Assembly: GCA_020632235.1 (NCBI GenBank)
Contig: JACKFY010000002.1
Location: 163,954 to 227,953, forward strand
Origin: Pseudomonadales bacterium
Lineage (GTDB): Bacteria; Patescibacteriota; Microgenomatia; UBA1400; PJMF01
Direction of reading: 5' to 3'
Length of the DNA stretch: 64,000 nt
A program made the position numbers and the translations under genes. Positions 14,796 to 60,540 of the stretch are shown piece after piece. The notes below the pieces were generated by a model. That model saw nothing but the letters and a program-made list of their open reading frames with translations, made no database searches and had not been told where the DNA came from. The stretch's first letter is position 1. Each line of letters starts with the position of its first letter.

Positions 14796-14826
14796 TTGAT
14801 AAATTTAGAGAGAGAGAGAGGATAAT
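14796..14826 (+). promoter_or_regulatory. Putative promoter: TTGATA, 19-nt spacer containing (AG)7 (14807-14820), then GATAAT.
   Basis: Near-identical core to the promoter at 60511-60540. Confidence 0.4.
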
Positions 14827-14917
14827 GAGCTCTACTATGGGCAGAGAAGGACTACGTCAAACTATAGAGGGAATCAAAATTGAACATTCAAGGCCACCTC
14901 AAAAATAGGATGGACTG

Positions 14918-15139
14918 GTGACACTTGTTGGTGTGTTTTGTGAGCCAACAAACGCCCACGGTGTGACTGCAGAACAGATTAAAGCAGAAATAAGATTACT
15001 GGCGCCAGATTCTTCTATAAATATTCTCGATATTTTTTCGACTAGATATAGACTAGGTCAAATTTCGGTTACTCAGTTAGAACCATTACGATCTTTGTAC
15101 TATCAAGTAGCTGAAGAACTTCGCTCAGGATCAGGCTAA
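14918..15139 (+). CDS. Hypothetical small protein (73 aa).
   Basis: ORF only. Confidence 0.3.
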   Translation: MTLVGVFCEPTNAHGVTAEQIKAEIRLLAPDSSINILDIFSTRYRLGQISVTQLEPLRSLYYQVAEELRSGSG

Positions 15140-15206
15140 ACTCCTGCTTGGTTTTGTTTTTGGAGTGTGTCATACTTTGTTTGTACAGTAGTAATAGAAA
15201 GAACGT

Positions 15207-15674
15207 ATGCAAGATGCTGCCCAGCCTCAAGTTGCTACCAGTGAAGCACTTGAAGATCAAAATATTTTTCACCTTCTCGGGGTGACCGATGGCTCTGATG
15301 AAGAGCGCGAGTCATTTCTTGATGAACTACAGCAAGTGATTTGGGATGATTTTCTTGATTTTGATGTGAAGTTGCTCATTACCAGCGATGAGTACGAAGA
15401 GTTTCAGACCATTCGTTCTGGTGCAGATGCAACTGATCTGGAAAACCAAGAGAAAATTGTGGTGTTTTTAGAAAAGCTTATTCCTGACCTGGAAGATATT
15501 ATGCTTGAGAAAGCTTTAGAGCTCAAAGGAGACATGGTGCGTGAGCGTATTGCGGGCATGAGAGAGTACCACTCGGGGAATACGCAGGCTTTGGCGCAGA
15601 TTGACCAGGCAGAAGCCCAACTAAGAGACGACCTGTGGAAGTCTGCCGCCGATACGCTCAATGCTATTGGTTAG
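15207..15674 (+). CDS. Hypothetical acidic protein (155 aa).
   Basis: ORF; helical and acidic. Confidence 0.4.
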   Translation: MQDAAQPQVATSEALEDQNIFHLLGVTDGSDEERESFLDELQQVIWDDFLDFDVKLLITSDEYEEFQTIRSGADATDLENQEKIVVFLEKLIPDLEDIMLEKALELKGDMVRERIAGMREYHSGNTQALAQIDQAEAQLRDDLWKSAADTLNAIG

Positions 15675-15735
15675 TCCCGTTTTATTTTTTGTTTGAGTGA
15701 GTATCTCTTTGTTCTTCTAGATGGTAGGATGAGGT

Positions 15736-16698
15736 ATGTCTACGTTACTTATAGACTGCGGCTGTGCAAACACTCGGATTGTTGTTGATGGTGAGCTTGT
15801 TTTTGATCAACCCACCTGTATGGCAGTGCACGCACAGTCAGAATCAGTGGTGTCGTATGGTGACAAGGCGCTTGCTTTGTTGGGGAAAGTAGGGGCCGAT
15901 CTACGTGTTACATTTCCTGTCATGTATGGCATGCCAACTTCATATACCGCAGCCTCACGTTACTTTGATGCTGTTATCAAAGAACACGCACGCCCCGCAC
16001 TCTGGAGACGAATGTTTGCCCAGCCTGTGGTACTTACCTATTCTGGAGGTAGCTCTCCTGCTAGCACGACTGCCTGGCAGCGTGTGTTTTCATCAATTGG
16101 CTGTAGTGTAAAAAAGCACGTATTTGCTCCTGCTGCAGCGGCCAATACAGTATCTGCAAAGCTTGACGCACCGTTATGTATTTTGGTAATTGGTGCTCAG
16201 ATGAGCAGCATTGCGGTAGTGCGTGATAGGGCGGTGGTAGCATCTGCGAGCATTCGTTGGGGTGGTGCTAGGATAACCGAGATACTCCAGTCAGAGTTGG
16301 TTCGCATTCATCAGTTGCGTGTGGGGTGGAGCACAACAGAGAAACTTAAAAAACAAGTACACCTGTTTTCATCTTCATCACACAAGTCTATGGTGGTGGA
16401 AGGCAGAGATGCTATAGGCGGTAGAGCACTGAAGGTAGATATAGACACCCAAGCATGTGTGCAACCAGTGCGTGTGTACTTGGCAGAACTCGAGCACTTC
16501 ATAGCGCATTTTTTTTCTCAAATTTCGACCCAGTTAGCCACCTCGGTACTACAAAACGGCATCTTTCTTGCAGGAGGAACAGCACAGCTAATCGATGTGC
16601 CCCAGCATCTCTCGTCTGTGTTGGGGTGTCGGGTAGAGGTAGTGCCACATCCTTCTTTCGCAGCAATTAAGGGCTTACAGGTACAGTATGAAGCGTAG
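15736..16698 (+). CDS. mreB: Divergent actin-like rod-shape protein MreB.
   Basis: N-terminal IDCGCANTRIVV (cf. IDLGTANTLIYV) and C-terminal LAGGTAQL...G (cf. LTGGGALL). Followed by mreC-mreD-mrdA. Confidence 0.65.
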   Translation: MSTLLIDCGCANTRIVVDGELVFDQPTCMAVHAQSESVVSYGDKALALLGKVGADLRVTFPVMYGMPTSYTAASRYFDAVIKEHARPALWRRMFAQPVVLTYSGGSSPASTTAWQRVFSSIGCSVKKHVFAPAAAANTVSAKLDAPLCILVIGAQMSSIAVVRDRAVVASASIRWGGARITEILQSELVRIHQLRVGWSTTEKLKKQVHLFSSSSHKSMVVEGRDAIGGRALKVDIDTQACVQPVRVYLAELEHFIAHFFSQISTQLATSVLQNGIFLAGGTAQLIDVPQHLSSVLGCRVEVVPHPSFAAIKGLQVQYEA

Positions 16699-17488
16699 AG
16701 TTGCCCAGCATTCTTTTCATTTGACGCCTCAGATAGTAGTAGTGGCGTTTATCTGTTTTGTCTGTTTATTTAGCCTGAACGCTATTGGCGTGCTTACTCC
16801 TTTACAAGCAAGTATTCGTTGGACAGCACAACCTATGACGCAAGTGACCACCTCTTTTCTGTTTACGGCACAACACACACTAGATACTCTCGTGCAATTT
16901 CCTCAGTTGAGTGCAGATATTACAATACTACAAAAAGAAAATACTCTTTTGAAAGCCCAGCAAGCAACTACGCTATCACTTCTGCAAGAAAATGAAGCGC
17001 TGCGCGCCTTACTGCAGGTGGATGATACTGGTGCTGCGCATCAGGTGGTGGGACGAGTTGCCCAGGTGCACAACTATGTTACACCTATGATTTCATTTAA
17101 ACCAGAAGAAGGCGCACCAACCTCTGGCGACCTAGTGCTTTCACGAGGTGTGCTGCTGGGGTTTCTTGACGTTGTAGAACATTCGCAGGCCACAGTGTTG
17201 TTGCTTGAGCGTCGTACGGCACCTGTGGTGGCGCGCACCACTACAGGCGTTATTGGTGTTGTCCACAGAGAAGGGGACGTGTTTCTTTTTACCGATGTGC
17301 CCAGAGATACTGCTGTTACACCTGGTGAGCTGCTCGTAACTGCTGGCCAGCCCGGGGTGCCTGCGGATATCTTGATTGGTTCGGTAGGTACGCGGGTTGG
17401 CACGCGCACCTCATCTGTGCAGTCATTTCGAGTAGTACGTCCAGAGACATTTTCTTCAGTATCATTAGTAGAGCTGCGCTCGCCATGA
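16688..17488 (+). CDS. mreC: Rod shape-determining protein MreC.
   Basis: N-terminal TM helix, coiled-coil (LQKENTLLKAQ...ENEALRALL), beta-rich C-terminus; operon position. Confidence 0.6.
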   Translation: MKRRVAQHSFHLTPQIVVVAFICFVCLFSLNAIGVLTPLQASIRWTAQPMTQVTTSFLFTAQHTLDTLVQFPQLSADITILQKENTLLKAQQATTLSLLQENEALRALLQVDDTGAAHQVVGRVAQVHNYVTPMISFKPEEGAPTSGDLVLSRGVLLGFLDVVEHSQATVLLLERRTAPVVARTTTGVIGVVHREGDVFLFTDVPRDTAVTPGELLVTAGQPGVPADILIGSVGTRVGTRTSSVQSFRVVRPETFSSVSLVELRSP

Positions 17489-17895
17489 ATACCAGCTGGT
17501 TTCTCACTACTCTGCAGTTGGTTGCCCTCTGCCTGTGTCTTTTTTTTGAGGCAAGTATTGGTGTTCCTATCTTGACCGTGTGGTTGTTACTTTCTCTTGT
17601 TGCCAGAGTGTCAACGCCTTTTCTGTTTGTGTTGTTGGTGATTGTCTCTTTATTGCTGGGAGCGGTGTACTTCGTTTCTCCTGCTATTTTTTTTGTGGTC
17701 TTGTTTGTTGTAATGTGTAGTTTTTTTGTGTTACAACAACACGTATTTTTTGCTCGGTCGTTGTTGGCAGGGGTGGGGGGGGCGGGGGTTGGATTTTTTG
17801 TAGCACATCCAGAAATGAGCGTTTCATGGATATACTTTGTAGTATTGCTGATTCTTTTAGTATTGTTTGAATTTTTAGTACATAGATATGAATAA
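17485..17895 (+). CDS. mreD: MreD-like small polytopic membrane protein.
   Basis: 136 aa, 4-5 TM helices, lies between mreC and mrdA. Confidence 0.45.
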   Translation: MNTSWFLTTLQLVALCLCLFFEASIGVPILTVWLLLSLVARVSTPFLFVLLVIVSLLLGAVYFVSPAIFFVVLFVVMCSFFVLQQHVFFARSLLAGVGGAGVGFFVAHPEMSVSWIYFVVLLILLVLFEFLVHRYE

Positions 17896-19756
17896 AGTGC
17901 GTACGTTTATACCAATTGGAGTGCTAGCGGCAGTGATGTGCGCTACGACGGTGCTACGACTCTTTGATGTCCAGATAATCAGAGGTGAGCAGTTTGCACA
18001 CTTAGCAGAGCAAAATAGAGTGTTTACGGCTCCTGTTCCAGCAGAGCGAGGTGTGTTTTTTGACAGGTATGGTGATTTTTTGGTGTACAATTCTCCTGAA
18101 TACTTTCTCCTAGATAACCCAACTCAAGCATATAGTCAGGTAACACCAGTCAGTCGTGATCAGGCGTTGGCGGTGATGGCTACCGATAGTGCTCGGGTTT
18201 CATATAAGCCGTCACGCGTTTACACCTTTCCGACGGTCCTCTCGCACGTCGTAGGATGGGCTTCCAGCGTGACGGCAGAAGAGTTACAGCAAAACCCCAG
18301 CCTCTCTGTCCGCAGCGTTGTTGGTAAAACTGGTCTTGAACGCTTTTTTGAACGTAATCTGCAGGGTCAAGAAGGCTCTCGTCAGTACGAGGTGAATGCA
18401 CTTGGCCAGCACGAGCGCCTGCTTGCTACTACTCTTGGTAGCCCAGGTCAGTCGCTCACTACCACAATTGACCCCTATCTTTCAACGATGCTCGCCCGCT
18501 CCTTAGGAGAACAAAAAGGAGCGGCAGTGGTGTTTGATGCGGCCACTGGCGCAGTGCTTGCATTGGTTAGTACGCCCGGGTTTGATGCAAATCTGTTTAG
18601 TCACACTCCATTGGATATGGCAGAGAAGCAGCAACGCGCCCAGGCTTTGCAGAGTGTCGTGCGTGACGAGCGAAACCCGATGTTTAACCGGGCGGTGGGT
18701 GGGGCGTATCCACCTGGTTCGGTATTCAAGCTAGTTACCGCTGCCACCGGACTTGAAAATGGATCGTTTAATACCCAAACCAGTGTAATAGATACTGGTG
18801 TCTTGGAGGTGGGGCAGTACAGCTTTGCCAACTGGTTTTATACCCAGTATGGCGGTACTGATGGCGAGGTCAGCGTAGTCAGGGCACTAGCGCGCAGCAA
18901 TGATATCTTTTTTTACAAAGCAGCAGAGTGGATCGGGCCAGACGGACTAGCCCAGGGAGCACGTCTGCTCGGCTTGGGTGCGCCTACAGGCATCGAGTTG
19001 CTGGGTGAGAGTGCAGGGCTTGTGCCAGACCCTCAGTGGAAAGAAGAGGTAGTTGGTGAAAAGTGGTTTTTGGGCAATACCTATCACTTTGGAATAGGGC
19101 AGGCAGACTTACTGGTGACTCCGCTGCAAGTGGCTCAGTACACGCAAGTATTTGCCAACCAAGGCTTGTTGTGCCACCCGCACCTCATACAGTACGAAGA
19201 CGCTCAGTCTACGTGTAGCGAGGTTGGTTTATCAAGCGAAACAATAGACACAGTACTTGAAGGCATGATAGATGCATGTAGTGATGGTGGTACTGCCTAT
19301 CCCTTTTTCCCCATCAATGCAGCGGTTGAGGCTAGCGGGAGTGCTCGTGAGCGCATTCGCTCTGGTGCGGTTGCCTGCAAAACAGGTACGGCAGAGTTTG
19401 GCGGCGTTGACGAGAATGGCTATCGCAGCACGCATGGTTGGTTTACTGCCATACTTGATACAAGACCTCTTCTTTCTCAGACCACAGCACCTGTCCAGGC
19501 ACTACGTCCTTCTGCAGTTACCGAGGTTTCTAGTTCTGCCGAGCTCTATACTGCATGGAGAGAAAAGATAGACAGGGCTGCACTGCCTGAAAAGCTAGTG
19601 ATGGTGGTGTTGGTTGAGAGTGACGAAGAGCAGCCATATAAAGAGGGCTCTCGCGATGCAGCCCCTGTAGTCAAAGATATTGTTGACTGGATGGGCGGCA
19701 CGATGCAAGTAGCAACAGACTCGGCAGAAGTAGCGCCCGCAGGACAGGCAGAATGA
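17888..19756 (+). CDS. mrdA: Penicillin-binding protein 2 (peptidoglycan D,D-transpeptidase).
   Basis: SVFK (SxxK), SND (SxN) and KTGT motifs; N-terminal TM anchor. Confidence 0.85.
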   Translation: MNKVRTFIPIGVLAAVMCATTVLRLFDVQIIRGEQFAHLAEQNRVFTAPVPAERGVFFDRYGDFLVYNSPEYFLLDNPTQAYSQVTPVSRDQALAVMATDSARVSYKPSRVYTFPTVLSHVVGWASSVTAEELQQNPSLSVRSVVGKTGLERFFERNLQGQEGSRQYEVNALGQHERLLATTLGSPGQSLTTTIDPYLSTMLARSLGEQKGAAVVFDAATGAVLALVSTPGFDANLFSHTPLDMAEKQQRAQALQSVVRDERNPMFNRAVGGAYPPGSVFKLVTAATGLENGSFNTQTSVIDTGVLEVGQYSFANWFYTQYGGTDGEVSVVRALARSNDIFFYKAAEWIGPDGLAQGARLLGLGAPTGIELLGESAGLVPDPQWKEEVVGEKWFLGNTYHFGIGQADLLVTPLQVAQYTQVFANQGLLCHPHLIQYEDAQSTCSEVGLSSETIDTVLEGMIDACSDGGTAYPFFPINAAVEASGSARERIRSGAVACKTGTAEFGGVDENGYRSTHGWFTAILDTRPLLSQTTAPVQALRPSAVTEVSSSAELYTAWREKIDRAALPEKLVMVVLVESDEEQPYKEGSRDAAPVVKDIVDWMGGTMQVATDSAEVAPAGQAE

Positions 19757-23820: not shown

Positions 23821-23821
23821 C

Positions 23822-35341: not shown

Positions 35342-35587
35342 ATGATGGTACGAACGCAGGTGTACATGCCGCCAGATCTTCACCAGCAAGCTTTGCAACA
35401 CGCCAATAGTAAAGGCGTTTCTCTATCTGCCGTTGTTCGGCAGGGGGTCACCCAGGTGATTCACCCCGGAAAACAGTCGGAACAAATGCAACCAAAACAA
35501 AAAACTATTTCATCGGTACTGCCAGTTTTGAACTCTGGTCGGGATCCTGGAGTTATCACCAGAGAAATGATCTATGACGGATTTTAG
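35342..35587 (+). CDS. Putative antitoxin (RHH-like) of a VapBC pair.
   Basis: Small basic/helical protein immediately upstream of, and overlapping, the PIN gene. Confidence 0.45.
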   Translation: MMVRTQVYMPPDLHQQALQHANSKGVSLSAVVRQGVTQVIHPGKQSEQMQPKQKTISSVLPVLNSGRDPGVITREMIYDGF

Positions 35588-36017
35588 TGTTGGGTGTGTG
35601 GATACAAATATTTTCATCTATGCATTTGATAATGCCTCTCGCTTTCATATACCATCTGTAAAGACTATTAATACATTATCTACGCTAGGCATAGTGATAA
35701 TGCCGCAGATACAACTAGAGATCTTTAGTGCACTTCATTATATCGAGCCGCTTTCTCAAAAAAGACTTGATCTTATTGATTCTATTCTTTGTCTTCCAAA
35801 AGTACAAAATGTGTATCCTCTAGAAACTACACACACTCGTGCTTTGCAAGAAGCCTTGAAAATTACTCAGTTAGGTAAAAGAAAAATCTTCGACTACTAT
35901 CTTGCCCAAACATTGGTGGATAATGGAGTAGAGGTGCTCTACACCCATAACACAGCAGATTTTTCCGCTTATGCTGAAAAACTGACCATCATCAACCCAC
36001 TCGAACAATCATGGTAA
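35574..36017 (+). CDS. vapC: PIN-domain toxin (VapC-like).
   Basis: VDTNIFIYAFD N-terminal PIN motif. Confidence 0.65.
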   Translation: MTDFSVGCVDTNIFIYAFDNASRFHIPSVKTINTLSTLGIVIMPQIQLEIFSALHYIEPLSQKRLDLIDSILCLPKVQNVYPLETTHTRALQEALKITQLGKRKIFDYYLAQTLVDNGVEVLYTHNTADFSAYAEKLTIINPLEQSW

Positions 36018-36645: not shown

Positions 36646-36903
36646 CTAGTCTTTTTTTATTTCTTCTTGGTATTTAGCATATTTGTCTGGCTCGTCACTA
36701 GGCCAAGAAACCGTGGTGAAAACCATACCATGTTCGGCATCTTGCAAGTGGTCTTCCTCCATACGACCTGTCCCAAATCTAAATTGTAAACCCATCTCAG
36801 CTGCTACTTCCTCCATAATAAGAACATCTGCAATAGAGTGGTGGCCGCTTACATCGATCCTGACTTTTTTGGTTGTTGGTTCTATTTCTGCTTTTTCAGA
36901 CAT
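36646..36903 (-). CDS. Small hypothetical protein, paralog A (86 aa from the internal ATG; the ORF track extends to 36960 with a TTG).
   Basis: Paralogous to 43461-43718 (shared EEVAAEMGLQ/KEVAQEMGLR core). A conserved promoter lies upstream. Confidence 0.5.
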   Translation of the reverse strand: MSEKAEIEPTTKKVRIDVSGHHSIADVLIMEEVAAEMGLQFRFGTGRMEEDHLQDAEHGMVFTTVSWPSDEPDKYAKYQEEIKKD

Positions 36904-36935: not shown

Positions 36936-36960
36936 ATTTTCCTCTCTCTCTGAAAGTCAA
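36936..36960 (-). promoter_or_regulatory. Promoter of paralog A: -35 TTGACT, 13-nt spacer = ttc(AG)5, -10 GAAAAT. The spacer is too short.
   Basis: Aligned with the paralog B promoter, which has (AG)7 and a 17-nt spacer. Confidence 0.45.
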
Positions 36961-37045
36961 GTACTAAAATCCTATAACATCTAATAGCCTGCTAGAAAAT
37001 AGAATATTGGGTTTTGGGTTTTGGATGCTGGGGGCTGGTTTTTAT

Positions 37046-37169
37046 CCCCTCTTTTGAAAGAGGGGCTGCTGTCAGCTGACGGAAGGGGTGTTTTGTAAAA
37101 AAAGAGGGAACACAAACACCTCGCCCACTCATCCTTCGAATGAGGGATGCTCCTCTTAAAAAGAGGAGA
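37046..37169. repeat. Hairpin mosaic element: CCCCTCTT-ttga-AAGAGGGG plus GC-rich arms, CCACTCATCC..GAATGAGGG hairpin, CTCCTCTT-aaaa-AGAGGAG hairpin.
   Basis: Homologous modules at 43991-44118 and 60365-60400. Confidence 0.7.
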
Positions 37170-37308
37170 TTTAGTTCCGAACACACTATGTCTTCATTTT
37201 TGCCAAAACAAGCGGGTTTTGAGCACAGTTAGTATGTGTACAAAGCACAAGATGTAGTTTTTTCGGGTTGCGCGTACACAATATGTTGTGGTTTAGTGAT
37301 CAGCTGAT

Positions 37309-39349: not shown

Positions 39350-39631
39350 GTGGGTACTATGCAGTACATCTCGACAACTGATTTGAGAACACAGACGTCC
39401 CAGCTTATCGCAGCGCTCGACAGAGGAGAAGAGGTTACTCTCATCCATCGCTCCAAAGTAAGAGGAAAGATTCTTCCGTATAAAAATAAACGGAACGTAG
39501 TGGCGTTTGATGCTCAAAAGTTTGAGCAGTTTGTTGCTGATTTGAGCGAACTCCCCCCAGAGTCGCACACAGAAAGAGAAAAAAACTACAAAGCTCACTT
39601 GAGAAAAAAGTATGGATCGGATTTTTCTTGA
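39350..39631 (+). CDS. Phd/YefM-like antitoxin.
   Basis: ISTTDLRTQTSQLIAAL..GEEV.L profile; overlaps the downstream PIN gene. Confidence 0.5.
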   Translation: MGTMQYISTTDLRTQTSQLIAALDRGEEVTLIHRSKVRGKILPYKNKRNVVAFDAQKFEQFVADLSELPPESHTEREKNYKAHLRKKYGSDFS

Positions 39632-40001
39632 CACTAATATAGTGATAGATCTTATCTTGAGAAGAGAAGAGCACTCTGTACTATTTGATTACCCTGTTGC
39701 GTTATTTCTTTCTCCTTTGTCAGTCCATATTTTGATGTATGTAACCAAAAATGCGCTACCACCAAAAGAGCTCATACCTCTTGAAGAGATCTTTATGTTT
39801 GTAAGTTTTACAGGAAAGATTTCTATGCGTGCTTTGACAGGTCCTACCCCTGACTTTGAAGACAACGTCCAGCTACACTCGGCTGTAGCCAGTAAGTGTC
39901 ATGTTTTTTTGACGAGTGATACAAAATTACTGCAGTTGGGTCAGTTTCGCGGGGTTGAGATAATGACTCCTCCACATTGGGCTACTACTCGTGCTGCTTG
40001 A
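39612..40001 (+). CDS. vapC: PIN-domain toxin (VapC-like).
   Basis: FLDTNIVIDLIL N-terminal PIN motif. Confidence 0.6.
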   Translation: MDRIFLDTNIVIDLILRREEHSVLFDYPVALFLSPLSVHILMYVTKNALPPKELIPLEEIFMFVSFTGKISMRALTGPTPDFEDNVQLHSAVASKCHVFLTSDTKLLQLGQFRGVEIMTPPHWATTRAA

Positions 40002-40035: not shown

Positions 40036-41421
40036 ATGCTGTCAAAAACAAAGCACAATCTGCCCCAGCCACCATCCTTGATCAAAACTATCGGCCCATC
40101 ATTTATCTTGGTTGGTTTGGCTTTGGGTAGTGGCGAGGTTATTCTGTGGCCGTACTTGATTAGCCACTACGGCCTTGGCCTGCTCTGGGGCGCAGTGCTT
40201 GGCGTCTCATTTCAGTATCTCCTTAATACAGAAATTATGCGCTACACCTTGTATTGGGGCGAGAGCGTGTTTGTGGGCTTTCGGCGATTGAGTGCGTGGC
40301 TGCCATGGTGGTTTGTTGTCTCAACGGTGATCCCGTGGTCGCTGCCGGGGTTTTCATCTGCCTCAGCCGAGATTTTTTCAACACTGTTTCCCGCTCTGCC
40401 AGTCGAGACAACTATGATCGGCATGTTGCTGTTTTGTGGCATTCTGCTTTCTGTAGGGAGTAGTGTTTATAAAACAATGGAGCGCCTCGAGAAAGGGGTG
40501 GTGATAGGTTCGCTTATTTTTATCTTCGTGCTCGTTTGTCTGTTTACGGGTCTCGCCGACTGGTCGCAGGCGGCGGTGGGGTTGGTGGGGGTGGGGGATG
40601 GGTGGTGGTTATTTCCAGAAACGATTGCTTTGATGAGCTTTTTGGCAGCATTTGCCTATGCGGGCGGTGGGGGGAACTTAAACTTTGCCCAGTCGTACTA
40701 TATCAAGGAAAAGGGGTTTGGCATGGGGGCGTACGCGCCAAAAATTGGCTCGATTACTTCTTCCTCGATGGACGAGCGACCATCACTACTGGGTCAAACA
40801 TTTCCCAAAACAAAACAGAACAAAGCCATGTGGCAACAGTGGTGGCAGCTGGTTACTACCGAGCACCGATTGGTATTTTGGGGCGGGGGCATTGTCTCGA
40901 TTGTGATGCTGTCGGTGTTGGCACACGCACTTGTCCCTGAGGGAGTGACGACCGAAGGGCTAGCGTTTCTCTATAGCGAGGCAGCCACTCTTGCTGTGGT
41001 TTCGCCCCTGTTGGGCAAAGTATTTCTCTTGAGTGTGGCTACTATGTTGTTCTCCACGCAGTTGATCGTGTTGGAGTCTACCTCTCGGATTATCTCGGAA
41101 AATATCTTGCTTATTCGCTCAAAAACAGGCAATACCTGGAGTCAGACCAAAGCGTTTTTTACTGCGCTGTGGGGGCAAATTACATTGGGAGTTATGATTA
41201 TTATTTCTGGGTTTCAAGAGCCGCACTTTTTACTCACCCTTGCAGCAGCACTCAATGCCGGCGCGATGATGGTAGCGTTTATCTTGATCTTTTTCTTGAA
41301 CAAAAAACAGCTTGAGCCCGAGTTTCAACCAGGAAAACTGCGCAGTATTGGGCTGGGCATCGCTACGTTATTTTTTATTTTCTTTGTCTGCATGACCATC
41401 TGGCAGGGTATTACTGGATGA
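40036..41421 (+). CDS. Polytopic membrane transporter, NRAMP-like divalent-metal transporter family (tentative).
   Basis: About 11 TM helices. N-terminal GPSFILVGLALGSGEV..WP resembles the NRAMP TM1 region, but the DPGN motif is absent. Confidence 0.4.
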   Translation: MLSKTKHNLPQPPSLIKTIGPSFILVGLALGSGEVILWPYLISHYGLGLLWGAVLGVSFQYLLNTEIMRYTLYWGESVFVGFRRLSAWLPWWFVVSTVIPWSLPGFSSASAEIFSTLFPALPVETTMIGMLLFCGILLSVGSSVYKTMERLEKGVVIGSLIFIFVLVCLFTGLADWSQAAVGLVGVGDGWWLFPETIALMSFLAAFAYAGGGGNLNFAQSYYIKEKGFGMGAYAPKIGSITSSSMDERPSLLGQTFPKTKQNKAMWQQWWQLVTTEHRLVFWGGGIVSIVMLSVLAHALVPEGVTTEGLAFLYSEAATLAVVSPLLGKVFLLSVATMLFSTQLIVLESTSRIISENILLIRSKTGNTWSQTKAFFTALWGQITLGVMIIISGFQEPHFLLTLAAALNAGAMMVAFILIFFLNKKQLEPEFQPGKLRSIGLGIATLFFIFFVCMTIWQGITG

Positions 41422-41735
41422 AGATAGTATTACTTGATTTTCTAGGTAGTACTTTGTACACTTATTCTGCAAGTATGCAGATGGTTACTACTGTTACTAC
41501 CAAAGGCCAGGTGGTTATCCCACAACACCTGCGTGATGCGTTGGGTCTGCACCCATCTCAAAAAGTGCTCTTTGACAGAAAGGGTGAGACTCTTGTGCTA
41601 AAAAAGGTGCCAACTGTCAAGACCATGAGAGGTTTTATTACCGCAAAAAAGAAGGTGTCCGCTCGAAACTTTGACGCGGCAATCAAACAAGCAGTGCTAA
41701 TAAAACATCATAAGAAACAACATGATAATTCTTGA
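41418..41735 (+). CDS. AbrB/MazE/SpoVT-family antitoxin.
   Basis: TTKGQVVIPQHLRDALGL swapped-hairpin motif. Confidence 0.6.
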   Translation: MKIVLLDFLGSTLYTYSASMQMVTTVTTKGQVVIPQHLRDALGLHPSQKVLFDRKGETLVLKKVPTVKTMRGFITAKKKVSARNFDAAIKQAVLIKHHKKQHDNS

Positions 41736-42093
41736 TACAAACGTACTCATTCGTTACTTTATAAACGATGATGTGGCGATAGCAAAGAAAGTTGAAGCAG
41801 TACTGCAAACAGCAGAGCACCTGCATATTCCAGCAGTAGTTTTTCCCGAAATAGAGTATGTGTTGCTGAAACTGTATGATTCCACCAGGGATGCTGTGGG
41901 CGAGGCGTTTTCTTTCTTGTGTTCTCTGTCAAATGTAAAGGTGGATCTGGTAGTGCAACAAGCAGTCGTGTTGTACAAAAAAACCAATCTAGATATGGCT
42001 GACTGCATTGTCGCGTGTAGCGGCAGGCAGGGTGATTTGATTGCTAGTCTGGACAGAGCCCTCGTGAACAACACCAATATGGAGGCGTACTAG
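41722..42093 (+). CDS. vapC: PIN-domain toxin (VapC-like).
   Basis: ILDTNVLIRYF motif. Confidence 0.7.
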   Translation: MIILDTNVLIRYFINDDVAIAKKVEAVLQTAEHLHIPAVVFPEIEYVLLKLYDSTRDAVGEAFSFLCSLSNVKVDLVVQQAVVLYKKTNLDMADCIVACSGRQGDLIASLDRALVNNTNMEAY

Positions 42094-43460: not shown

Positions 43461-43718
43461 CTAATTGCCGGTTCTTTTGATAGTGTTATCAACACGTTTC
43501 CAAAAATCCGTCAGTCCTTCTGGTCCCTGCCCAGATATTTCGACCCAACCTTTGCCAGGCTCAGGTTCGTGTAATGTGTTTGTTCCATCGTTGTATGGAG
43601 CCATTTCAGGAGTATCAAGTCTGAGTCCCATTTCTTGCGCAACTTCCTTCATAACTTCAATGTGTTCAAGTAGGTATTGTCCTCTCATAGGTTGGTTTTT
43701 TATAAATAACTCTTTCAT
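43461..43718 (-). CDS. Small hypothetical protein, paralog B (85 aa).
   Basis: Paralog of 36646-36903. Confidence 0.5.
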   Translation of the reverse strand: MKELFIKNQPMRGQYLLEHIEVMKEVAQEMGLRLDTPEMAPYNDGTNTLHEPEPGKGWVEISGQGPEGLTDFWKRVDNTIKRTGN

Positions 43719-43756: not shown

Positions 43757-43785
43757 ATTTTCCTCTCTCTCTCTCTGAAAGTCAA
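43757..43785 (-). promoter_or_regulatory. Promoter of paralog B: -35 TTGACT, 17-nt spacer = ttc(AG)7, -10 GAAAAT.
   Basis: Sequence; optimal spacing, in contrast to paralog A. Confidence 0.45.
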
Positions 43786-43990
43786 GTATCAAAATCCTAT
43801 AACTATGATAGTTTGTTGGAAAATAGGATGTTGGGTTTTAGGCACCTAGTTGCTTTGTCATTTCGACTGGAACAAAGTGAAGTGGAAAAATCTCATCTAG
43901 ATACCCCTGCCCGTAGTGTCTGCGACACAGTCGTTGTAGGCGGGTCAATTTGCAGTCGATATGACAGAGTAAGTAGCCGAAGTCGGGACG

Positions 43991-44118
43991 TCTTCCCTTA
44001 CAAGGGAAGTGTTAAAACACCCCTGGCTTTCAGCCAGCCCCTCTTGAAAAGAGGGGATATAAAACACCCTTCCCCTCACCATTCTATGGTGAGGGATGCC
44101 CCTCTTGCAAAGAGGGGA
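43991..44118. repeat. Hairpin mosaic element: CTTCCCTTACAAGGGAAG, CCCCTCTT-gaaa-AGAGGGG, CCCCTCACCATTCTATGGTGAGGG, CCCCTCTT-gcaa-AGAGGGG.
   Basis: Same modules as at 37046-37169 and 60365-60400, partly in inverted order. Confidence 0.7.
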
Positions 44119-44147
44119 CAGTAAGCAAGATATGCTACTATGAATAC

Positions 44148-52962: not shown

Positions 52963-52999
52963 GTAGTCTCCACACCCTCTTTTCAAATAGACATTTCAA

Positions 53000-54012: not shown

Positions 54013-54033
54013 ACACTACGAAGGAAAGGCTCT

Positions 54034-54519: not shown

Positions 54520-54554
54520 TAGTAGATACCTCTTAAAAAACAGACACTCATTCT

Positions 54555-54782
54555 ATGCCAAAGCGAAAAAGTCCTAGAAAAATCATTAGAAAAGTAAAAG
54601 TACCCAAAGGCGTGGTGCTCAGCTATAAAGACAGCGAGACACTCAAGCTGTTTGTTACCGAGCAAGGTGCTTTGTTACCCAGAGAAGCCACTACCTTGAG
54701 TCAAAAAAACCAGCGCAAGCTAGCCCGAGAGGTTAAGCGCGCACGCCACTTGGCGCTACTGCCGTTTACCCAGACTCTGTGA
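54555..54782 (+). CDS. rpsR: 30S ribosomal protein S18.
   Basis: bS18 profile; operon context. Confidence 0.85.
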   Translation: MPKRKSPRKIIRKVKVPKGVVLSYKDSETLKLFVTEQGALLPREATTLSQKNQRKLAREVKRARHLALLPFTQTL

Positions 54783-54822
54783 GTGCTCGTCGGCCGACGG
54801 AGGGAAATCTACTTGGACTCCT

Positions 54823-56607: not shown

Positions 56608-56835
56608 AGACTCCTTTGTCTTTGTATGTGACAAAAGAGCATCAGCGTTTGTGTGTATGTGTAGAAAAAAAACGCCCGATGCTCGTCGGTATACTGAGTG
56701 ACACAGCACTCGGTATTTATCGCCAAGATCGGACTTGTCTCTTGTATGCAGAGCTTCACCGTTGCGGCACAGTCCCGGAATGAAGACCGGAGTTCCAGTG
56801 CGATAGAGTCTTACTCTAACGCATTCACACGAGTG

Positions 56836-56853
56836 TTGTCAACGTGCTACAAT
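56836..56853 (+). promoter_or_regulatory. Extended -10 promoter TGcTACAAT (56845-56853), with TTGTCA just upstream. The transcript would start about 8 nt before ATG 56862, giving a near-leaderless ctpA.
   Basis: Sequence motif. Places the track's GTG start (56844) inside the promoter. Confidence 0.4.
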
Positions 56854-56861
56854 GGCTTTCT

Positions 56862-58103
56862 ATGCGCGGTCGTTTTGAGGTATTTTCTCAAGTAGTAATT
56901 GGTTTGTTGCTGGTGGGCATCGGTCTTTTGGCACAGTATCGCTATCACGTTGTTGAGCGGGTGCGGGCAAATGTTGCCGATACAGGTAGTGGCGTTACGC
57001 GTAGCACCACTGCGTACACCGACCCTCAGAGTGTTGACCTAACCACGTTTTGGCAGGTGTGGCGGGCGCTTGAAACCGAGTACATCGAGCCAGAAAAGCT
57101 TGACCAAGAAGTGATGGTAGACGGGGCTATTCAGGGCATGACCGCGTCGTTGGGTGACCCGTACACTATGTACTTACCACCAGAAGATAATAAACGGAGC
57201 GCTGAAGACCTGGCAGGTTCGTTTTATGGAGTAGGAATTGAGCTGGGGTATCGTGAAGGAGTTTTGGCGGTGGTAGCACCACTCAAAGGCACGCCGGCAG
57301 GAAGTGCCGACGTGCAGCCAGGAGACTTGATTTTGAGAGTGAAGGATGAGCAGAAGTCACTTGATGCTGACTCTACCAACTGGGCACTTGGTGAGGCAGT
57401 GGACAACATTCGCGGACCAAAGGGAACGCCTGTCACGCTAACTTTATTTCGCCAAGATTACAACGACAACCAACCATTTGAAGTCGTGTTGGAGCGCGGC
57501 GAGATCGTAGTCAACTCGGTAGAGCTAGAGTATGTTGAGAGTGCTGGCAAGCGTGTGGCTCACCTGACGGTATCCAGGTTTGGTGAGCGTACGAACGATG
57601 AGTGGAACACCGCAGTAGCCGATATTTTGGCACAAAAAGGGTCTCTTTCTGGCATAATTTTGGACATGCGCAACAATCCTGGTGGGTTTTTTGATGGCGC
57701 GATCACTATCGCTAGTGATTTTATCCCGAGTGGAGTAGTCGTTTCGCAAAAAGGAACGGGAGGCTCAAGAGAGTACAGTGTTGATCATCGCTCGCGACTA
57801 GATGGCATTCCCGTTGAGGTGTTAGTCAATCGAGGCTCTGCGTCTGCCTCCGAGATCGTGGCTGGCGCACTGCGTGACAGAGTGGGCGCGCAGTTGATTG
57901 GTGAGCAAACCTTTGGCAAAGGCACTGTCCAAGACAGGCTAGAGCTGGCTAATGGTGGCGGTGTGCACATCACCATTGCCCGTTGGTTGTTGCCCAGCGG
58001 CGAGTGGATTCATGACGAGGGTATTCCTGTTGATATTGCGGTAGAGCAAAATCTAGAGACAGAAGAGGACGAAGTGCTACTTACAGCAATTGAGGTGTTG
58101 TGA
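56862..58103 (+). CDS. ctpA: Carboxyl-terminal processing protease (S41 family) with PDZ domain and N-terminal TM anchor.
   Basis: PDZ (GVGIELGYREGVL.V..P..G.PA..A....GD.I) plus S41 catalytic region (DMRNNPGG ... NRGSASASEI). Confidence 0.85.
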   Translation: MRGRFEVFSQVVIGLLLVGIGLLAQYRYHVVERVRANVADTGSGVTRSTTAYTDPQSVDLTTFWQVWRALETEYIEPEKLDQEVMVDGAIQGMTASLGDPYTMYLPPEDNKRSAEDLAGSFYGVGIELGYREGVLAVVAPLKGTPAGSADVQPGDLILRVKDEQKSLDADSTNWALGEAVDNIRGPKGTPVTLTLFRQDYNDNQPFEVVLERGEIVVNSVELEYVESAGKRVAHLTVSRFGERTNDEWNTAVADILAQKGSLSGIILDMRNNPGGFFDGAITIASDFIPSGVVVSQKGTGGSREYSVDHRSRLDGIPVEVLVNRGSASASEIVAGALRDRVGAQLIGEQTFGKGTVQDRLELANGGGVHITIARWLLPSGEWIHDEGIPVDIAVEQNLETEEDEVLLTAIEVL

Positions 58104-59274
58104 TATGACTGCTCGCACATCATTTCTTCTTGGTCTGGGCATCTCCATTTTGATTATGTTCTCATTTTTTGCCGGAGCGTTGGCAGATAGAGTGTTTGTA
58201 ATACGACCACTTGACGCGCTTGCACCTCGAATCACCTCTTCTGCTGAAAATGCTAGTAATGACATCTCCAATCTTGGTACGCTATTGATACCCGAGCAGG
58301 AAAACTCAGTCGCTGATGTAGCAGAGCGCGCATCTACTAGTGTGGTGACGGTCTCTGTGAAAACCCAGCAGCAACTATTTGAAGAAGTGCCAGGCCTATT
58401 TGGCTTTGGCTTTCAGGTGCCAAGTGGTGAGGTGCAAGAAGTGCAGCAAGACATAGGTACGGGGTTTGTGGTGAGTGAAGGGTTGGTGGTGACCAACAAA
58501 CACGTGGTGTCGGGTGCTGCTTCAGAATACCTGGTGATCACCGCCGATAACACCGAGCATGTAGTTTCACAAATATACCGTGACCCCGAGATTGACATGG
58601 CCATTCTCAAAGTTGCTAACCTTACTAGCGCTGCATTACCACTAGGTGACTCTGACAGCGTGCGGGTGGGGGAGGGTGTGATAGCGATAGGCACCGCACT
58701 AGGCGAGTTTCGGCATACGGTTACCACGGGTGTAGTATCTGGCCTGGGACGAGCTATCACGGCTGGGGGTGGGGTGGGTAGTGCTACTGAAAGTCTAGAA
58801 AATGTGATCCAGACTGACGCAGCTATTAACCCAGGAAACTCTGGCGGGCCACTACTTAGTTCGGCTGGTCAAGTGATTGGGGTGAATGTGGCCGTCTCGC
58901 AGTACGCAGAGAATATAGGGTTTGCTATTCCTATCAACGTGATTAAACATTCATTAGAACATTTTAACAACACAGGGCAGTTTACCCGTCCATTTCTAGG
59001 AGTAGGGTATAGCGTGGTGTCAGAGCAAGCAGCGCTGGCAAATGAAGTGCCGCAAGGCGCGTACGTAACCCAAGTACAGTCAGGTTCAACGGCTGATAGG
59101 GCAGGTTTGAGGCCAGGTGATATTATTACTTCGTTTGCTGGTACTCAACTGAAGGATGTAGAGCTTGCCACCCTCATTAATGACCACACAGTAGGTGAGA
59201 GTGTTGTCATAGAGTACTGGCGAGAAGGCGTGCGCCAGACGGTCTCCGTTACCCTGGAGGCTGCCAACGAGTAA
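58090..59274 (+). CDS. htrA: HtrA/DegP-family serine protease with C-terminal PDZ domain (TTG start).
   Basis: GTGFVV...VVTNKHVV (His), D (Asp), NPGNSGGPLL (Ser), PDZ GLRPGDIIT. Confidence 0.85.
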   Translation: MRCCDMTARTSFLLGLGISILIMFSFFAGALADRVFVIRPLDALAPRITSSAENASNDISNLGTLLIPEQENSVADVAERASTSVVTVSVKTQQQLFEEVPGLFGFGFQVPSGEVQEVQQDIGTGFVVSEGLVVTNKHVVSGAASEYLVITADNTEHVVSQIYRDPEIDMAILKVANLTSAALPLGDSDSVRVGEGVIAIGTALGEFRHTVTTGVVSGLGRAITAGGGVGSATESLENVIQTDAAINPGNSGGPLLSSAGQVIGVNVAVSQYAENIGFAIPINVIKHSLEHFNNTGQFTRPFLGVGYSVVSEQAALANEVPQGAYVTQVQSGSTADRAGLRPGDIITSFAGTQLKDVELATLINDHTVGESVVIEYWREGVRQTVSVTLEAANE

Positions 59275-59284
59275 GGCGAGGTGT

Positions 59285-59372
59285 TTAAAACCCCTCTATC
59301 CTGAACTAAAGTCGGGATGTCCCCGTGCCCCCCGATGTTTCATCGGGGAGTCCCCTTACGAAAGGGAGGGAG
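59285..59372. repeat. Hairpin mosaic element (left arm of an inverted pair flanking prfA): AAAACCCCTCTATC ... CCCCCCGATG-ttt-CATCGGGG ... TCCCCTTACGAAAGGGAGGG.
   Basis: Reverse-complement match to 60403-60489. Confidence 0.7.
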
Positions 59373-59382
59373 GTGCTTAGCA

Positions 59383-60336
59383 CTACATAACAGGCGAAGA
59401 GTCTTCTTCCCTTTCCATCTCGGTTTTTAGCTCTACGAGCATCTCTGCAATCCCACCATCCAGAATGCCCTCAAGGTTGTACCACGACTGCTTAGTGCGA
59501 TGGTCGGTAACTCTATTTTGCGGAAAGTTGTAGGTGCGGATCTTCTCAGACCGCCTGTTGCGCCCGATAGCGCTTCTGGCATCGCCTAGCTCTTTGAGGC
59601 GCTTTTCTTCTTCAATCTCCCACAGCTGCGCGCGCAAGAGCTCGAGGGCAATCTTGCGGTTTTGCTCTTGTTTTTTTTCTTGCCTGGCCTGTACGGCAAT
59701 ACCACTAGGGGTGTGTGTCAGGCGCACCGCGCTATTTACTTTATTTACATTTTGCCCACCCGCCCCCCCCGCGCGCATGAACTGCCACTCTAGGTCTTCA
59801 TCGCGAATTTCAACTGCTGTGCTCGCAACTTCTGGCAAAACCGCCACGCTGGCAGTAGAGGTATGAATGCGGCCTTGTGACTCTGTCTCTGGCACGCGCT
59901 GCACTCGGTGCACACCACTTTCATACTGCAGGAGCTCGTAGGCTGTCAGGCGAATTGTCTGCTCGTCAGATTGCACCTTGGTGCTGCCGATCAGTTTGAT
60001 CACTAGGTCGTCAATGTACTCAATCTTCAGTTTTGAGGTTTCGGCAAACCTGGCATACATTCGCATCAAGTCAGCCGCCCAGATTTTAGCCTCATCACCA
60101 CCAGCCCCAGGGCGGAACTCAAGCGTACAGTTGGTGTGGATGGTGGTTTGACCACTTTCTGCATTCATGGCGTCTTCCAGATCACTTGCGAGCGTTTCTA
60201 GTTGTTTTTTTTGTGTTTCTAGCTGTTCTATTTCGCTTGCGGCTAGCTCCGCCATGTCTGGGTCGTCTAGTAGAGCAGTGGTTTCTGCAATCTGGTGGTC
60301 TAGCAGGTCAAGTTGTGATTGATACGGATTCTGCAT
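59383..60336 (-). CDS. prfA: Peptide chain release factor 1 (short form, 317 aa).
   Basis: PET (PxT tripeptide), GGQ motif (RAGGAGGQNVNK) and the C-terminal RNRTYNFPQNRVTDHR class-I RF signature. Confidence 0.85.
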   Translation of the reverse strand: MQNPYQSQLDLLDHQIAETTALLDDPDMAELAASEIEQLETQKKQLETLASDLEDAMNAESGQTTIHTNCTLEFRPGAGGDEAKIWAADLMRMYARFAETSKLKIEYIDDLVIKLIGSTKVQSDEQTIRLTAYELLQYESGVHRVQRVPETESQGRIHTSTASVAVLPEVASTAVEIRDEDLEWQFMRAGGAGGQNVNKVNSAVRLTHTPSGIAVQARQEKKQEQNRKIALELLRAQLWEIEEEKRLKELGDARSAIGRNRRSEKIRTYNFPQNRVTDHRTKQSWYNLEGILDGGIAEMLVELKTEMEREEDSSPVM

Positions 60337-60364
60337 GAGACATCTAGTATAGCAGGTGTTTCAT

Positions 60365-60489
60365 CCCCTCTTTTCAAGAGGGGCTGGCTGCAAGCCAGGG
60401 GTGTTTTATCACTCCCTTTGTAAGGGGACCCCCTGATGAAACATCGGGGGACAGGGACATCAAGCGCTAGTGTGATAGAGGGGTTTTTT
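60365..60489. repeat. Hairpin mosaic element (right arm): CCCCTCTT-ttca-AGAGGGG with GC arms, TCCCTTTGTAAGGGGA, CCCCCTGATG-aaa-CATCGGGGG, and the 30-mer ATCAAGCGCTAGTGTGATAGAGGGGTTTTTT.
   Basis: Matches 3762-3880 (same orientation) and 59285-59372 (inverted). Confidence 0.7.
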
Positions 60490-60510
60490 ATTATCTTATA
60501 ACTTTGAATA

Positions 60511-60540
60511 TTGACAAATGAAGAGAGAGAGAGAGATAAT
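60511..60540 (+). promoter_or_regulatory. Promoter: -35 TTGACA, 18-nt spacer containing (AG)7 (60522-60535), -10 GATAAT. Upstream of the 269-aa hypothetical gene; GAAGGGGGG Shine-Dalgarno at 60569-60577.
   Basis: Consensus hexamers; same architecture as 14796-14826. Confidence 0.45.

What the first reader, a model, noticed from the sequence alone, without database searches (positions are those of the whole stretch)
14796..60540. Promoters with (AG)n tracts forming the -35/-10 spacer; paralogue copies differ by exactly two repeat units
Four promoters share the architecture TTGAC(A/T)/TTGATA - short linker - (AG)5-7 - GA(T/A)AAT. They are at 14796-14826 ((AG)7, 19-nt spacer, upstream of small genes leading to the mreB operon and divergent from the O-antigen-ligase/TPR gene), 60511-60540 ((AG)7, 18-nt spacer), 43757-43785 ((AG)7, 17-nt spacer, paralogue B) and 36936-36960 ((AG)5, 13-nt spacer, paralogue A). 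Dinucleotide tracts inside promoter spacers are the classic slipped-strand phase-variation switch. Here the two paralogue copies differ by exactly two AG units, converting an optimal 17-nt spacer into a non-functional 13-nt one. That is consistent with ON/OFF switching by repeat slippage. Alternatively the (AG)n is simply part of a conserved promoter or UP-like element.
Basis: partly seen in the sequence, partly recalled or inferred. Interest (0 to 1): 0.6.

Follow-up and report, generated by a model that had tools for sequence, protein, structure and literature searches.

The report
AG-repeat spacers in Woesebacteria promoters
Four promoters in an uncultured Woesebacteria genome use a run of AG repeats as the stretch between their two recognition boxes, so gaining or losing repeats would change promoter strength, but no such switching was detected and it remains a plausible, unproven idea.

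Summary
The window has four perfect (AG)n tracts (n=7,7,7,5). They are its only dinucleotide repeats longer than 4 units. Each fills the gap between a TTGAYW box and a GAWAAT box, in an intergenic region, facing an ORF. The full pattern has 4 matches against 0.00 expected.

The organism is a Candidatus Woesebacteria (Patescibacteria) MAG. Its other promoter-like sites are canonical, with 16-18-nt spacers.

- All four downstream ORFs are lineage-specific ORFans with genome-typical codon usage.
- Site 1 lies in a ~300-nt insertion absent from relatives. The mreB operon keeps its own promoter.
- The 5-versus-7 pair shares an 82%-identical promoter block while the proteins are about 31% identical.

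The same architecture recurs in other uncultured bacteria. One tandem cassette family there has n=9,6,9.

Against rapid switching, every tract has the same length in two to four assemblies per site, and n=7 is kept at three sites whose spacers differ.

Verdict: real, unusual repeat-spacer promoters. Repeat slippage has changed the spacing over evolutionary time. High-frequency phase variation is plausible but unproven.

The parts
14796..14826 (+). Site 1 promoter: TTGATA (14796-14801), AATTT, (AG)7 (14807-14820), GATAAT (14821-14826). Spacer 19 nt.
   Evidence: The length is identical in L003 and L004.
14918..15139 (+). Unannotated 73-aa ORF with a GTG start, inside the lineage-specific insert downstream of site 1. 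It is the likely product of that promoter.
   Evidence: ORF listed. Codon-usage log-odds is +0.23 in frame and negative in the other five frames. No homologue was found. The insert is absent from relatives.
15148..15176 (+). Native promoter of the operon that starts with the 155-aa gene and continues through mreB and mreC: TTGGTT-17-CATACT, with no repeat.
   Evidence: Sequence read. Positional homologue of TTGACC-17-CATACT in relative L080.
36936..36960 (-). Copy A promoter: TTGACT, TTC, (AG)5 (36951-36942), GAAAAT. Spacer 13 nt, which is non-canonical.
   Evidence: The same n=5 is seen in L001 and L002.
36961..37017 (-). Conserved block upstream of the -35 box of copy A, shared with copy B.
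   Evidence: The compared stretch (36952-37017 versus 43777-43841, which includes the -35 box and linker) matches at 54 of 66 nt, versus ~54% nt identity in the CDS. The block occurs only at these two places in the window.
36646..36903 (-). ORFan A, 85 aa.
43757..43785 (-). Copy B promoter: TTGACT, TTC, (AG)7 (43776-43763), GAAAAT. Spacer 17 nt.
   Evidence: Identical in L085.
43786..43841 (-). Conserved block upstream of the -35 box of copy B.
43461..43718 (-). ORFan B, 85 aa. The model suggests a small alpha/beta fold resembling the ferredoxin type.
60511..60540 (+). Site 2 promoter: TTGACA, AATGA, (AG)7 (60522-60535), GATAAT (60535-60540). Spacer 18 nt.
   Evidence: Identical in L077.
60583..61392 (+). 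ORFan of 269 aa. NCBI annotates it as 233 aa from a later start.

Best explanation
These are genuine sigma-70-type promoters of an unusual class. The stretch between the -35 and -10 boxes consists of a short linker plus a perfect (AG)n repeat. Each promoter drives a small, lineage-specific ORFan gene.

Because the repeat is the spacer, gaining or losing AG units by replication slippage changes the box-to-box distance in 2-bp steps, and with it the promoter's activity. In the sequenced population:
- copy B (17 nt) and site 2 (18 nt) are in a permissive state;
- site 1 (19 nt) is weak to permissive;
- copy A (13 nt) is effectively off from this promoter.

Shown: the architecture; its non-random occurrence; a two-unit difference between otherwise conserved paralogous promoters; canonical 16-18-nt spacing at the genome's other promoter-like sites.

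Inferred: that spacing controls expression here, and that the change is reversible. The data suggest switching is slow, over evolutionary or strain-level time, rather than rapid. The repeats therefore act more like a heritable, slippage-adjustable setting than a proven high-frequency phase-variation switch.
For: Architecture and statistics.

Other promoter-like sites in the same window are TTGACA-like boxes with 16-18-nt spacers that are not AG-rich. The orthologous promoter in a relative is TTGACC-17-CATACT. This organism's RNA polymerase should therefore need canonical spacing.

The tract is on the sense strand in 4 of 4 sites, and an ORF with genome-typical codon usage starts 32-91 nt after the -10 box.

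The A and B promoter blocks are 82% identical over 66 nt, and 95% over the 37 nt next to the tract. The coding sequences are ~54% identical at the nucleotide level and ~31% at the protein level. The tract differs by exactly 2 units.

There is an independent parallel. Tandem promoter-gene cassettes in an unrelated MAG carry n=9,6,9, giving spacers of 19, 13 and 19, and all have intact genes. Another copy has n=10.

The architecture recurs in intergenic regions of Saccharibacteria and other Patescibacteria, a Chloroflexota MAG and an Anaerovoracaceae MAG. Spacers there range from 13 to 21 nt.

Three tracts reach the cut-off of at least 6 dinucleotide units used to call candidate phase-variable repeats (PMC6321876). 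Repeats that alter the spacing between the -35 and -10 boxes are an established switch mechanism (PMC3899988).
Against: Tract lengths are identical in every independent assembly found:
- site 1 in three assemblies;
- site 2 in two;
- copy B in two;
- copy A in three, from at least two BioSamples.
These are consensus sequences, so minority lengths would be hidden.

n=7 is kept at three sites whose linkers differ, so the spacers are 17, 18 and 19. Selection on spacing would predict the reverse: a constant spacer with n varying to compensate.

In the other cassette family, most complete copies across two species have n=9 (six copies, plus an interrupted copy that keeps the same 19-nt spacer). A freely hypermutable tract would not look like this.

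The downstream proteins show no signal peptide or membrane segment on reading, whereas classic contingency genes encode surface or restriction-modification functions.

(AG)7 is short, and copy A at n=5 is below the usual threshold. No transcript data are available.
Confidence: 0.45

Rival explanations
1. A fixed promoter module, not a switch. The (AG)n tract is a stable, inherited or convergently favoured part of a portable promoter cassette, for instance because a homopurine spacer gives useful helical or strength properties. The cassette has been duplicated together with ORFan genes. Copy A is simply a decayed or weakly expressed copy.
For: n=7 is kept at three sites despite different linkers and spacers. 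Sites 1 and 2 share 22 of 25 nt across the -35 box, linker and tract (D13), and A and B share a block. Both facts fit descent from common modules.

There is no length variation between assemblies.

In the JALSOA01/CAZQKL01 family, the 19-nt spacer is kept in most copies, including one whose tract is interrupted by a substitution (L071).

Four Patescibacteria share the core TTGACA-N3-5-(AG)5-7-TTAAATGAAAAT in front of unrelated genes.
Against: Perfect repeats persist while the flanking sequence has diverged by about 18%. Without selection for perfection, tracts should accumulate interruptions.

Spacers of 13 to 21 nt cannot all be functional for a polymerase that otherwise uses 16-18 nt. Intact genes sit behind 13-nt spacers in two unrelated genomes.

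No known sigma-70 requirement calls for an AG spacer.
Confidence: 0.3
2. Operator site. The (AG)7 tract, possibly with the conserved block upstream of A and B, is bound by a repressor or activator specific for polypurine DNA. The four ORFans would then form one regulon, and the tract length matters for binding rather than for spacing.
For: The same n=7 occurs at three promoters with otherwise different sequence. A ~55-nt block upstream of the -35 box is conserved between A and B, which suggests factor binding there. All targets are ORFans of the same lineage.
Against: I know of no bacterial regulator that recognises (GA)n. The tract sits exactly between consensus boxes in phylogenetically distant bacteria (Chloroflexota at 74% GC, Saccharibacteria, an Anaerovoracaceae MAG) with n from 5 to 10. 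A lineage-specific factor does not explain that. Sites 1 and 2 lack the upstream block.
Confidence: 0.1
3. Sensor of DNA supercoiling or triplex formation. The homopurine-homopyrimidine mirror repeat (purine runs of 15-19 nt) changes conformation with superhelical stress, making promoters with slightly long 18-19-nt spacers responsive to DNA topology.
For: The purine runs are read directly from the sequence. AG-spacer promoters here and elsewhere tend to be longer than the optimum, at 17-19 nt and often 19 nt. (GA)n tracts are the textbook sequences that form triplex DNA; this rests on established knowledge, not on a test here.
Against: 14-bp tracts are short for triplex formation. No test was possible. 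The idea does not explain the 13-nt copies.
Confidence: 0.05
4. Chance low-complexity sequence, or an assembly artefact.
For: None beyond the fact that short AG runs occur by chance. Most n=5 hits in other genomes lie inside ORFs.
Against: The expectation is 0.00 matches against 4 observed. All four are intergenic and correctly oriented. The sequence is identical in independently assembled MAGs and contigs.
Confidence: 0.01

Closest known systems
Haemophilus influenzae hifA/hifB fimbrial promoter with a (TA)n repeat
   Same: A dinucleotide repeat forms the spacer between the -35 and -10 boxes, and unit changes alter the spacing and so the transcription (PMC3899988). As at hif, site 2 here also has a candidate divergent promoter overlapping its -35 box.
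   Different: The unit is AG (homopurine), not TA. The organism is an uncultured Patescibacteria member, not a pathogen. The targets are small ORFans without a recognisable signal peptide, not fimbriae. No length polymorphism has been observed yet. The repeat lies in only one of the two divergent promoters.
Homopolymer-spacer promoters: Neisseria meningitidis porA (poly-G), with similar promoter repeats cited for Bordetella pertussis and Mycoplasma hyorhinis outer membrane proteins
   Same: A simple repeat in or near the promoter spacer sets promoter strength, and several such loci can occur per genome (PMC3899988).
   Different: Those repeats change in 1-bp steps that grade expression. Here the steps are 2 bp. 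Those tracts are demonstrably polymorphic between strains and within cultures.
Mycoplasma multigene families controlled by promoter-associated repeats: M. gallisepticum vlhA (GAA)n, M. mycoides Vmm (TA)n. This comparison rests on my own knowledge and was not checked here.
   Same: Several paralogous promoter-gene cassettes carry the same repeat with different unit numbers, and only some lengths allow expression. This resembles A versus B here and the n=9,6,9 cassettes in L035.
   Different: Those are surface lipoprotein families in cultured organisms with measured switching. In vlhA the repeat lies upstream of the promoter rather than in the spacer.

Membership tests
Phase-variable promoter driven by a simple-sequence repeat (contingency locus) | A perfect repeat long enough to slip (at least 6 dinucleotide units in the PhasomeIt cut-offs) | tested here: met
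   n=7 at sites 1, 2 and B. Copy A has n=5, below the cut-off.
Phase-variable promoter driven by a simple-sequence repeat (contingency locus) | The repeat lies between the -35 and -10 elements, so unit changes alter the spacing | tested here: met
   The tract is flanked by TTGAYW 3-5 nt upstream and by GAWAAT immediately downstream at all four sites. The elements are inferred from sequence only.
Phase-variable promoter driven by a simple-sequence repeat (contingency locus) | Tract length is polymorphic between strains or within a population | tested here: inconclusive
   Lengths are identical in all independent consensus assemblies. No close strains exist in the collections, and the nearest orthologue context lacks the insert. 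Paralogous copies do differ: A versus B, and L035 with n=9,6,9.
Phase-variable promoter driven by a simple-sequence repeat (contingency locus) | Expression level depends on repeat number | not testable with these tools
   No transcript or reporter data are available.
Phase-variable promoter driven by a simple-sequence repeat (contingency locus) | Switching is reversible and frequent | not testable with these tools
   This needs culture work or deep read data.
Sigma-70-type -35/-10 promoter | Hexamers close to TTGACA and TATAAT, with A at position 2 and T at position 6 of the -10 box | tested here: met
   TTGATA/TTGACA/TTGACT paired with GATAAT/GAAAAT.
Sigma-70-type -35/-10 promoter | Spacer of 16-18 nt | tested here: inconclusive
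   Met by copy B (17 nt) and site 2 (18 nt). Site 1 is borderline at 19 nt. Copy A fails at 13 nt.
Sigma-70-type -35/-10 promoter | Transcription starts about 7 nt downstream of the -10 box | not testable with these tools
   No 5'-end data are available.
UP element | An A/T-rich sequence located upstream of the -35 box (about -40 to -60) | tested here: not met
   The tract is 50% G and lies between the -35 and -10 boxes. The definition of an UP element is from established knowledge.
Triplex-forming (H-DNA) homopurine mirror repeat | An uninterrupted homopurine-homopyrimidine mirror repeat | tested here: met
   Purine runs of 15-19 nt are read from the sequence. This is short for stable triplex formation.
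Triplex-forming (H-DNA) homopurine mirror repeat | A structural transition under negative supercoiling | not testable with these tools
   This needs chemical or enzymatic probing.

The most novel reading that the evidence does not exclude
AG-repeat spacer promoters may be a convergently evolved, slippage-adjustable promoter class in uncultured bacteria (Patescibacteria, Chloroflexota and others). They would be attached to fast-evolving ORFan or small secreted-protein cassettes. In this Woesebacteria genome they would form a small set of true contingency loci, and I know of no earlier report of repeat-driven phase variation in the Candidate Phyla Radiation.
Probability: 0.3. Interest if true: 0.7.

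Novelty: new member of a known kind. Interest (0 to 1): 0.5.

Why it matters
Patescibacteria have tiny genomes and, by general knowledge, are thought to live largely as episymbionts. Very little is known about how they regulate genes or vary their phenotype.

If these repeats do switch ORFan genes on and off, the lineage would have a cheap, regulator-free way of hedging its bets. The unknown genes behind the promoters would then be good candidates for roles in host or phage interaction.

The idea can be tested with sequencing reads that already exist. Even without switching, the finding defines a recognisable promoter class tied to new genes in several uncultured phyla. That is useful for annotating such genomes and for finding unannotated small genes, such as the 73-aa ORF here.

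Tried and rejected
- Metagenome scan for the A/B promoter with a variable gap.
- The window's own species is not in the genome collection, so no genome-wide count was possible. Extending the window by about 12 kb gave no further promoter-type tract. It gave only one (AG)5 that by the called gene coordinates lies in the 3' end of the coding region upstream of a PemK-toxin gene.
- Exact-protein look-ups failed for B, the 269-aa protein, HPF and RecR, probably because gene callers chose different start codons.
- Phage origin: no PHROG hits, no viral relatives of the 269-aa protein, and only two unrelated viral matches to the promoter pattern.
- A structured RNA or riboswitch behind the promoters: no Rfam match even at E<=1, and folding z-scores of -0.03 and -1.3.
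- An antisense small RNA starting at the CU-rich strand of the A/B block: considered, but there is no structural or promoter support.
- Protein function: no Pfam hits. The AlphaFold model of the 269-aa protein is unusable (pLDDT 42). The B model (pLDDT 76) resembles a generic ferredoxin-type alpha/beta fold with no significant PDB match. The afdb50 library was unavailable.
- Reading site 1 as the mreB-operon promoter: rejected.
- UP-element reading: rejected on position and base composition.
- No mismatch-repair gene turned up among the large ORFs checked in the window. This says nothing about the genome as a whole.
Full report
**1. The observation**

| Site | Strand | -35 box | Linker | Tract | -10 box | Spacer |
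|---|---|---|---|---|---|---|
| 1 | + | TTGATA 14796-14801 | AATTT | (AG)7 14807-14820 | GATAAT 14821-14826 | 19 nt |
| 2 | + | TTGACA 60511-60516 | AATGA | (AG)7 60522-60535 | GATAAT 60535-60540 | 18 nt |
| B | - | TTGACT 43785-43780 | TTC | (AG)7 43776-43763 | GAAAAT 43762-43757 | 17 nt |
| A | - | TTGACT 36960-36955 | TTC | (AG)5 36951-36942 | GAAAAT 36941-36936 | 13 nt |

- (AG)5 matches only within these four tracts, against 0.19 matches expected from shuffles.
- A census of all dinucleotide repeats shows nothing else in the window above four units.
- The complete pattern TTGAYW-N3-5-(AG)5+-N0-4-GAWAAT has 4 matches against 0.00 expected.
- All four are intergenic, with the purine strand on the sense strand of a downstream ORF.

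**2. Organism and promoter background**

Proteins of the window are named in public records as Candidatus Woesebacteria (Patescibacteria, Microgenomates group). The same sequence occurs in MAG GCA_020429115.1 and in several metagenome assemblies.

Other promoter-like sites in the window's intergenic regions are canonical. They are TTGACA-like boxes followed by 16-18 nt and a TAnnnT box, and their spacers are not AG-rich. A relative's orthologous promoter is TTGACC-17-CATACT. This organism's polymerase should therefore have the usual spacing requirement. On that basis 17-18 nt is good, 19 nt is poor, and 13 nt is non-functional. This last step is an inference from established sigma-70 knowledge.

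**3. What the promoters drive**

- Site 2 precedes a 269-aa ORF (annotated as 233 aa by NCBI). Its only database match is itself.
- A and B precede 85-aa proteins. They are weak paralogues: 31% identity overall, with one conserved MxEVAxEMGL segment. A profile of the two finds only themselves among 1.84 billion representative proteins.
- Site 1 is not the mreB-operon promoter.
  - In the closest relatives, the gap between the divergent O-antigen-ligase/TPR gene and the conserved 155-aa gene (followed by mreB and mreC) is about 120 nt. It holds a plain promoter and no repeat.
  - The window has an extra ~300 nt that contain the AG promoter and a 73-aa ORF at 14918-15139.
  - The native promoter is retained at 15148-15176.
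  - The 73-aa ORF is not annotated and has no homologue.
- By a codon-usage log-odds score, all four ORFs score like real genes of this genome in the correct frame and negatively in the other five frames. The scores are +0.23 to +0.35 per codon, against 0.22 +/- 0.09 for known genes.
- None has a Pfam or PHROG match.
- None shows a signal peptide or membrane segment on reading the translations.
- The B model suggests a small fold resembling the ferredoxin type, with no significant structural relative.

Each AG promoter is therefore attached to a lineage-specific ORFan.

**4. The paralogue comparison**

A and B share a promoter block that is much better conserved than the genes.
- The block matches at 54 of 66 nt from the -35 box upstream, and at 95% over the 37 nt next to the tract.
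- By contrast, identity is about 61% in the 5' leader, 54% in the coding sequence and 41% further upstream.
- The block occurs nowhere else in the window.
- Within it, the only length change is two AG units.

Sites 1 and 2 also resemble each other across the -35 box, linker, tract and -10 box (22 of 25 nt; D13). The four sites may therefore descend from two promoter modules.

**5. Tests for length variation**

Every independent assembly retrieved has the same tract lengths:
- site 1 in a Logan contig and in GCA_020429115.1;
- site 2 in GCA_020429115.1;
- copy B in GCA_020429115.1;
- copy A in a Logan contig and in an ENA assembly from another BioSample.

These are consensus sequences with 100% identical flanks. 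They rule out different majority states between these samples, but not minority variants. No closely related strain exists in the collections. The nearest orthologue of the neighbouring gene is 71% identical, and its context lacks the insert. A metagenome scan for the A/B promoter found only unrelated sequences.

**6. The same architecture elsewhere**

A scan of 185,579 species genomes for the general pattern gave 44 stretches. Most n=5 hits lie inside long ORFs and look like chance. A distinct subset is intergenic, with the tract abutting a -10-like box:
- a Saccharibacteria MAG (L073): TTGACA-ATTC-(AG)7-ATAAT, spacer 17;
- a 74%-GC Chloroflexota MAG (L057): TTGACA-(AG)9-ATAAT, spacer 17;
- an Anaerovoracaceae MAG (L060);
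- four Patescibacteria (L045, L047, L053, L066) that share TTGACA-N3-5-(AG)5-7-TTAAA(A)TG(G)AAAAT in front of unrelated genes.

A multi-copy cassette family occurs in two AT-rich MAGs (JALSOA01 and CAZQKL01).
- There, TTGACA-YR-(AG)n-ATAAT plus a conserved leader drives small Cys-rich secreted peptides and two further genes.
- Six complete copies have n=9 (spacer 19), one has n=10, and one has an interrupted tract of the same total length.
- The middle one of three tandem cassettes in L035 has n=6, giving a 13-nt spacer, with intact genes.
- None of the downstream proteins tested has a Pfam domain above its family's cut-off; two matches for the L045 protein fall well below it. Several have signal peptides or membrane anchors by inspection.

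This shows three things:
- The architecture recurs in distant lineages.
- Unit-number differences between otherwise near-identical paralogous promoters have arisen independently.
- A dominant length can also be kept across many copies.

**7. Weighing the explanations**

For a slippage-set switch:
- The repeat lies in the one position where length matters.
- It is perfect and of one unit type at several loci.
- Three tracts meet the cut-off of at least 6 units used for candidate phase-variable dinucleotide repeats.
- Paralogues differ by whole units.
- Spacers across all examples run from 13 to 21 nt, which cannot all be active.
- Repeats that alter the spacing between the -35 and -10 boxes are an established mechanism.

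Against rapid switching:
- No consensus variation was found.
- n=7 is kept at three sites although the spacers then differ.
- n=9 is kept in most copies of the other family.
- The targets show no signal peptide or membrane segment.
- The tracts are short.

My best reading (confidence 0.45) is that these are genuine promoters whose spacing, and hence activity, is set by the repeat and has been changed by slippage. B and site 2 would be on, site 1 weak, and A off. Switching is probably slow rather than classic high-frequency phase variation.

The rivals, in order:
- a stable portable promoter module in which the AG tract is structural and A is a decayed copy (0.3);
- an operator for an unknown polypurine-binding regulator (0.1);
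- a supercoiling- or triplex-sensitive spacer (0.05);
- chance, which is excluded.

**8. Comparison with known systems, and novelty**

The closest known systems are:
- the (TA)n spacer of the H. influenzae hifA/hifB promoter;
- homopolymer-spacer promoters such as Neisseria porA, with similar promoter repeats cited for Bordetella and Mycoplasma hyorhinis;
- Mycoplasma multigene families, in which paralogous promoters carry different repeat numbers (my own knowledge).

The sequence-level defining features of a repeat-driven phase-variable promoter are met. The population-level features are untested or inconclusive. I therefore describe these as working like such promoters, without claiming demonstrated membership.

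A literature search returned no paper linking Patescibacteria with phase variation among its top results. I rate this a new member of a known kind. Interest is moderate (0.5), and would rise to about 0.7 if read-level heterogeneity were shown.

Noticed in passing
window 3760-3880, 37026-37170, 43990-44120, 60360-60490: Intergenic clusters of short GC-rich hairpins, such as CCCCTCTT..AAGAGGGG, CCCCGATG..CATCGGGG and CTGGCT..AGCCAG, often followed by GGGGTGTTTT. They are partly homologous to one another (repeat families D6 and D10). Three clusters lie 20-250 nt upstream of AG promoters. They look like REP-type or terminator-type elements.
   Followed up: partly
window 1312-1449 and 2200-2247: Partial copies of a tRNA 3' half (repeat families D2, D4, D5) lie next to the tRNA gene at 1379-1449. 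This may be an attachment-site duplication left by an integrated element.
   Followed up: no
window 61806-62054 and 62098-62111: A glmS ribozyme lies upstream of the glmS gene (Rfam, 50.6 bits). It is followed by the palindrome CTCTCTCTAGAGAG just before the start codon.
   Followed up: no
window 60490-60517, - strand: A candidate promoter for the divergent release-factor gene, TTGTCA-16-GATAAT, overlaps the -35 box of the site 2 AG promoter. The two promoters would then be back to back and share DNA.
   Followed up: partly
window 14918-15139: A 73-aa ORF with genome-typical codon usage is not called as a gene in the two assemblies whose gene calls were seen. It lies in an insert absent from relatives.
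   Followed up: yes
L034 and L035 (whole loci), L037:2239-2271, L040:5215-5245, L056:89-119, L071:9-39: Two AT-rich MAGs carry tandem cassettes. Each has an AG-spacer promoter, a conserved leader with a hairpin and T-run, a 72-85-aa Cys-rich secreted peptide, a ~340-395-aa lipoprotein and a ~150-195-aa protein. They resemble precursor-peptide gene clusters. Repeat numbers are 6, 9 and 10.
   Followed up: partly
L045:1250-1283, L047:2879-2915, L053:1042-1073, L066:3531-3563: Four different Patescibacteria species share a ~35-nt promoter core, TTGACA-N3-5-(AG)5-7-TTAAA(A)TG(G)AAAAT, in front of unrelated genes. The flanking sequence is unrelated. This suggests either a mobile promoter module or strong convergence.
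   Followed up: partly
window 39612-40001, 41418-42093; also 35574-36017: Several PIN-domain and MazE-type toxin-antitoxin genes lie around the A/B region.
   Followed up: no
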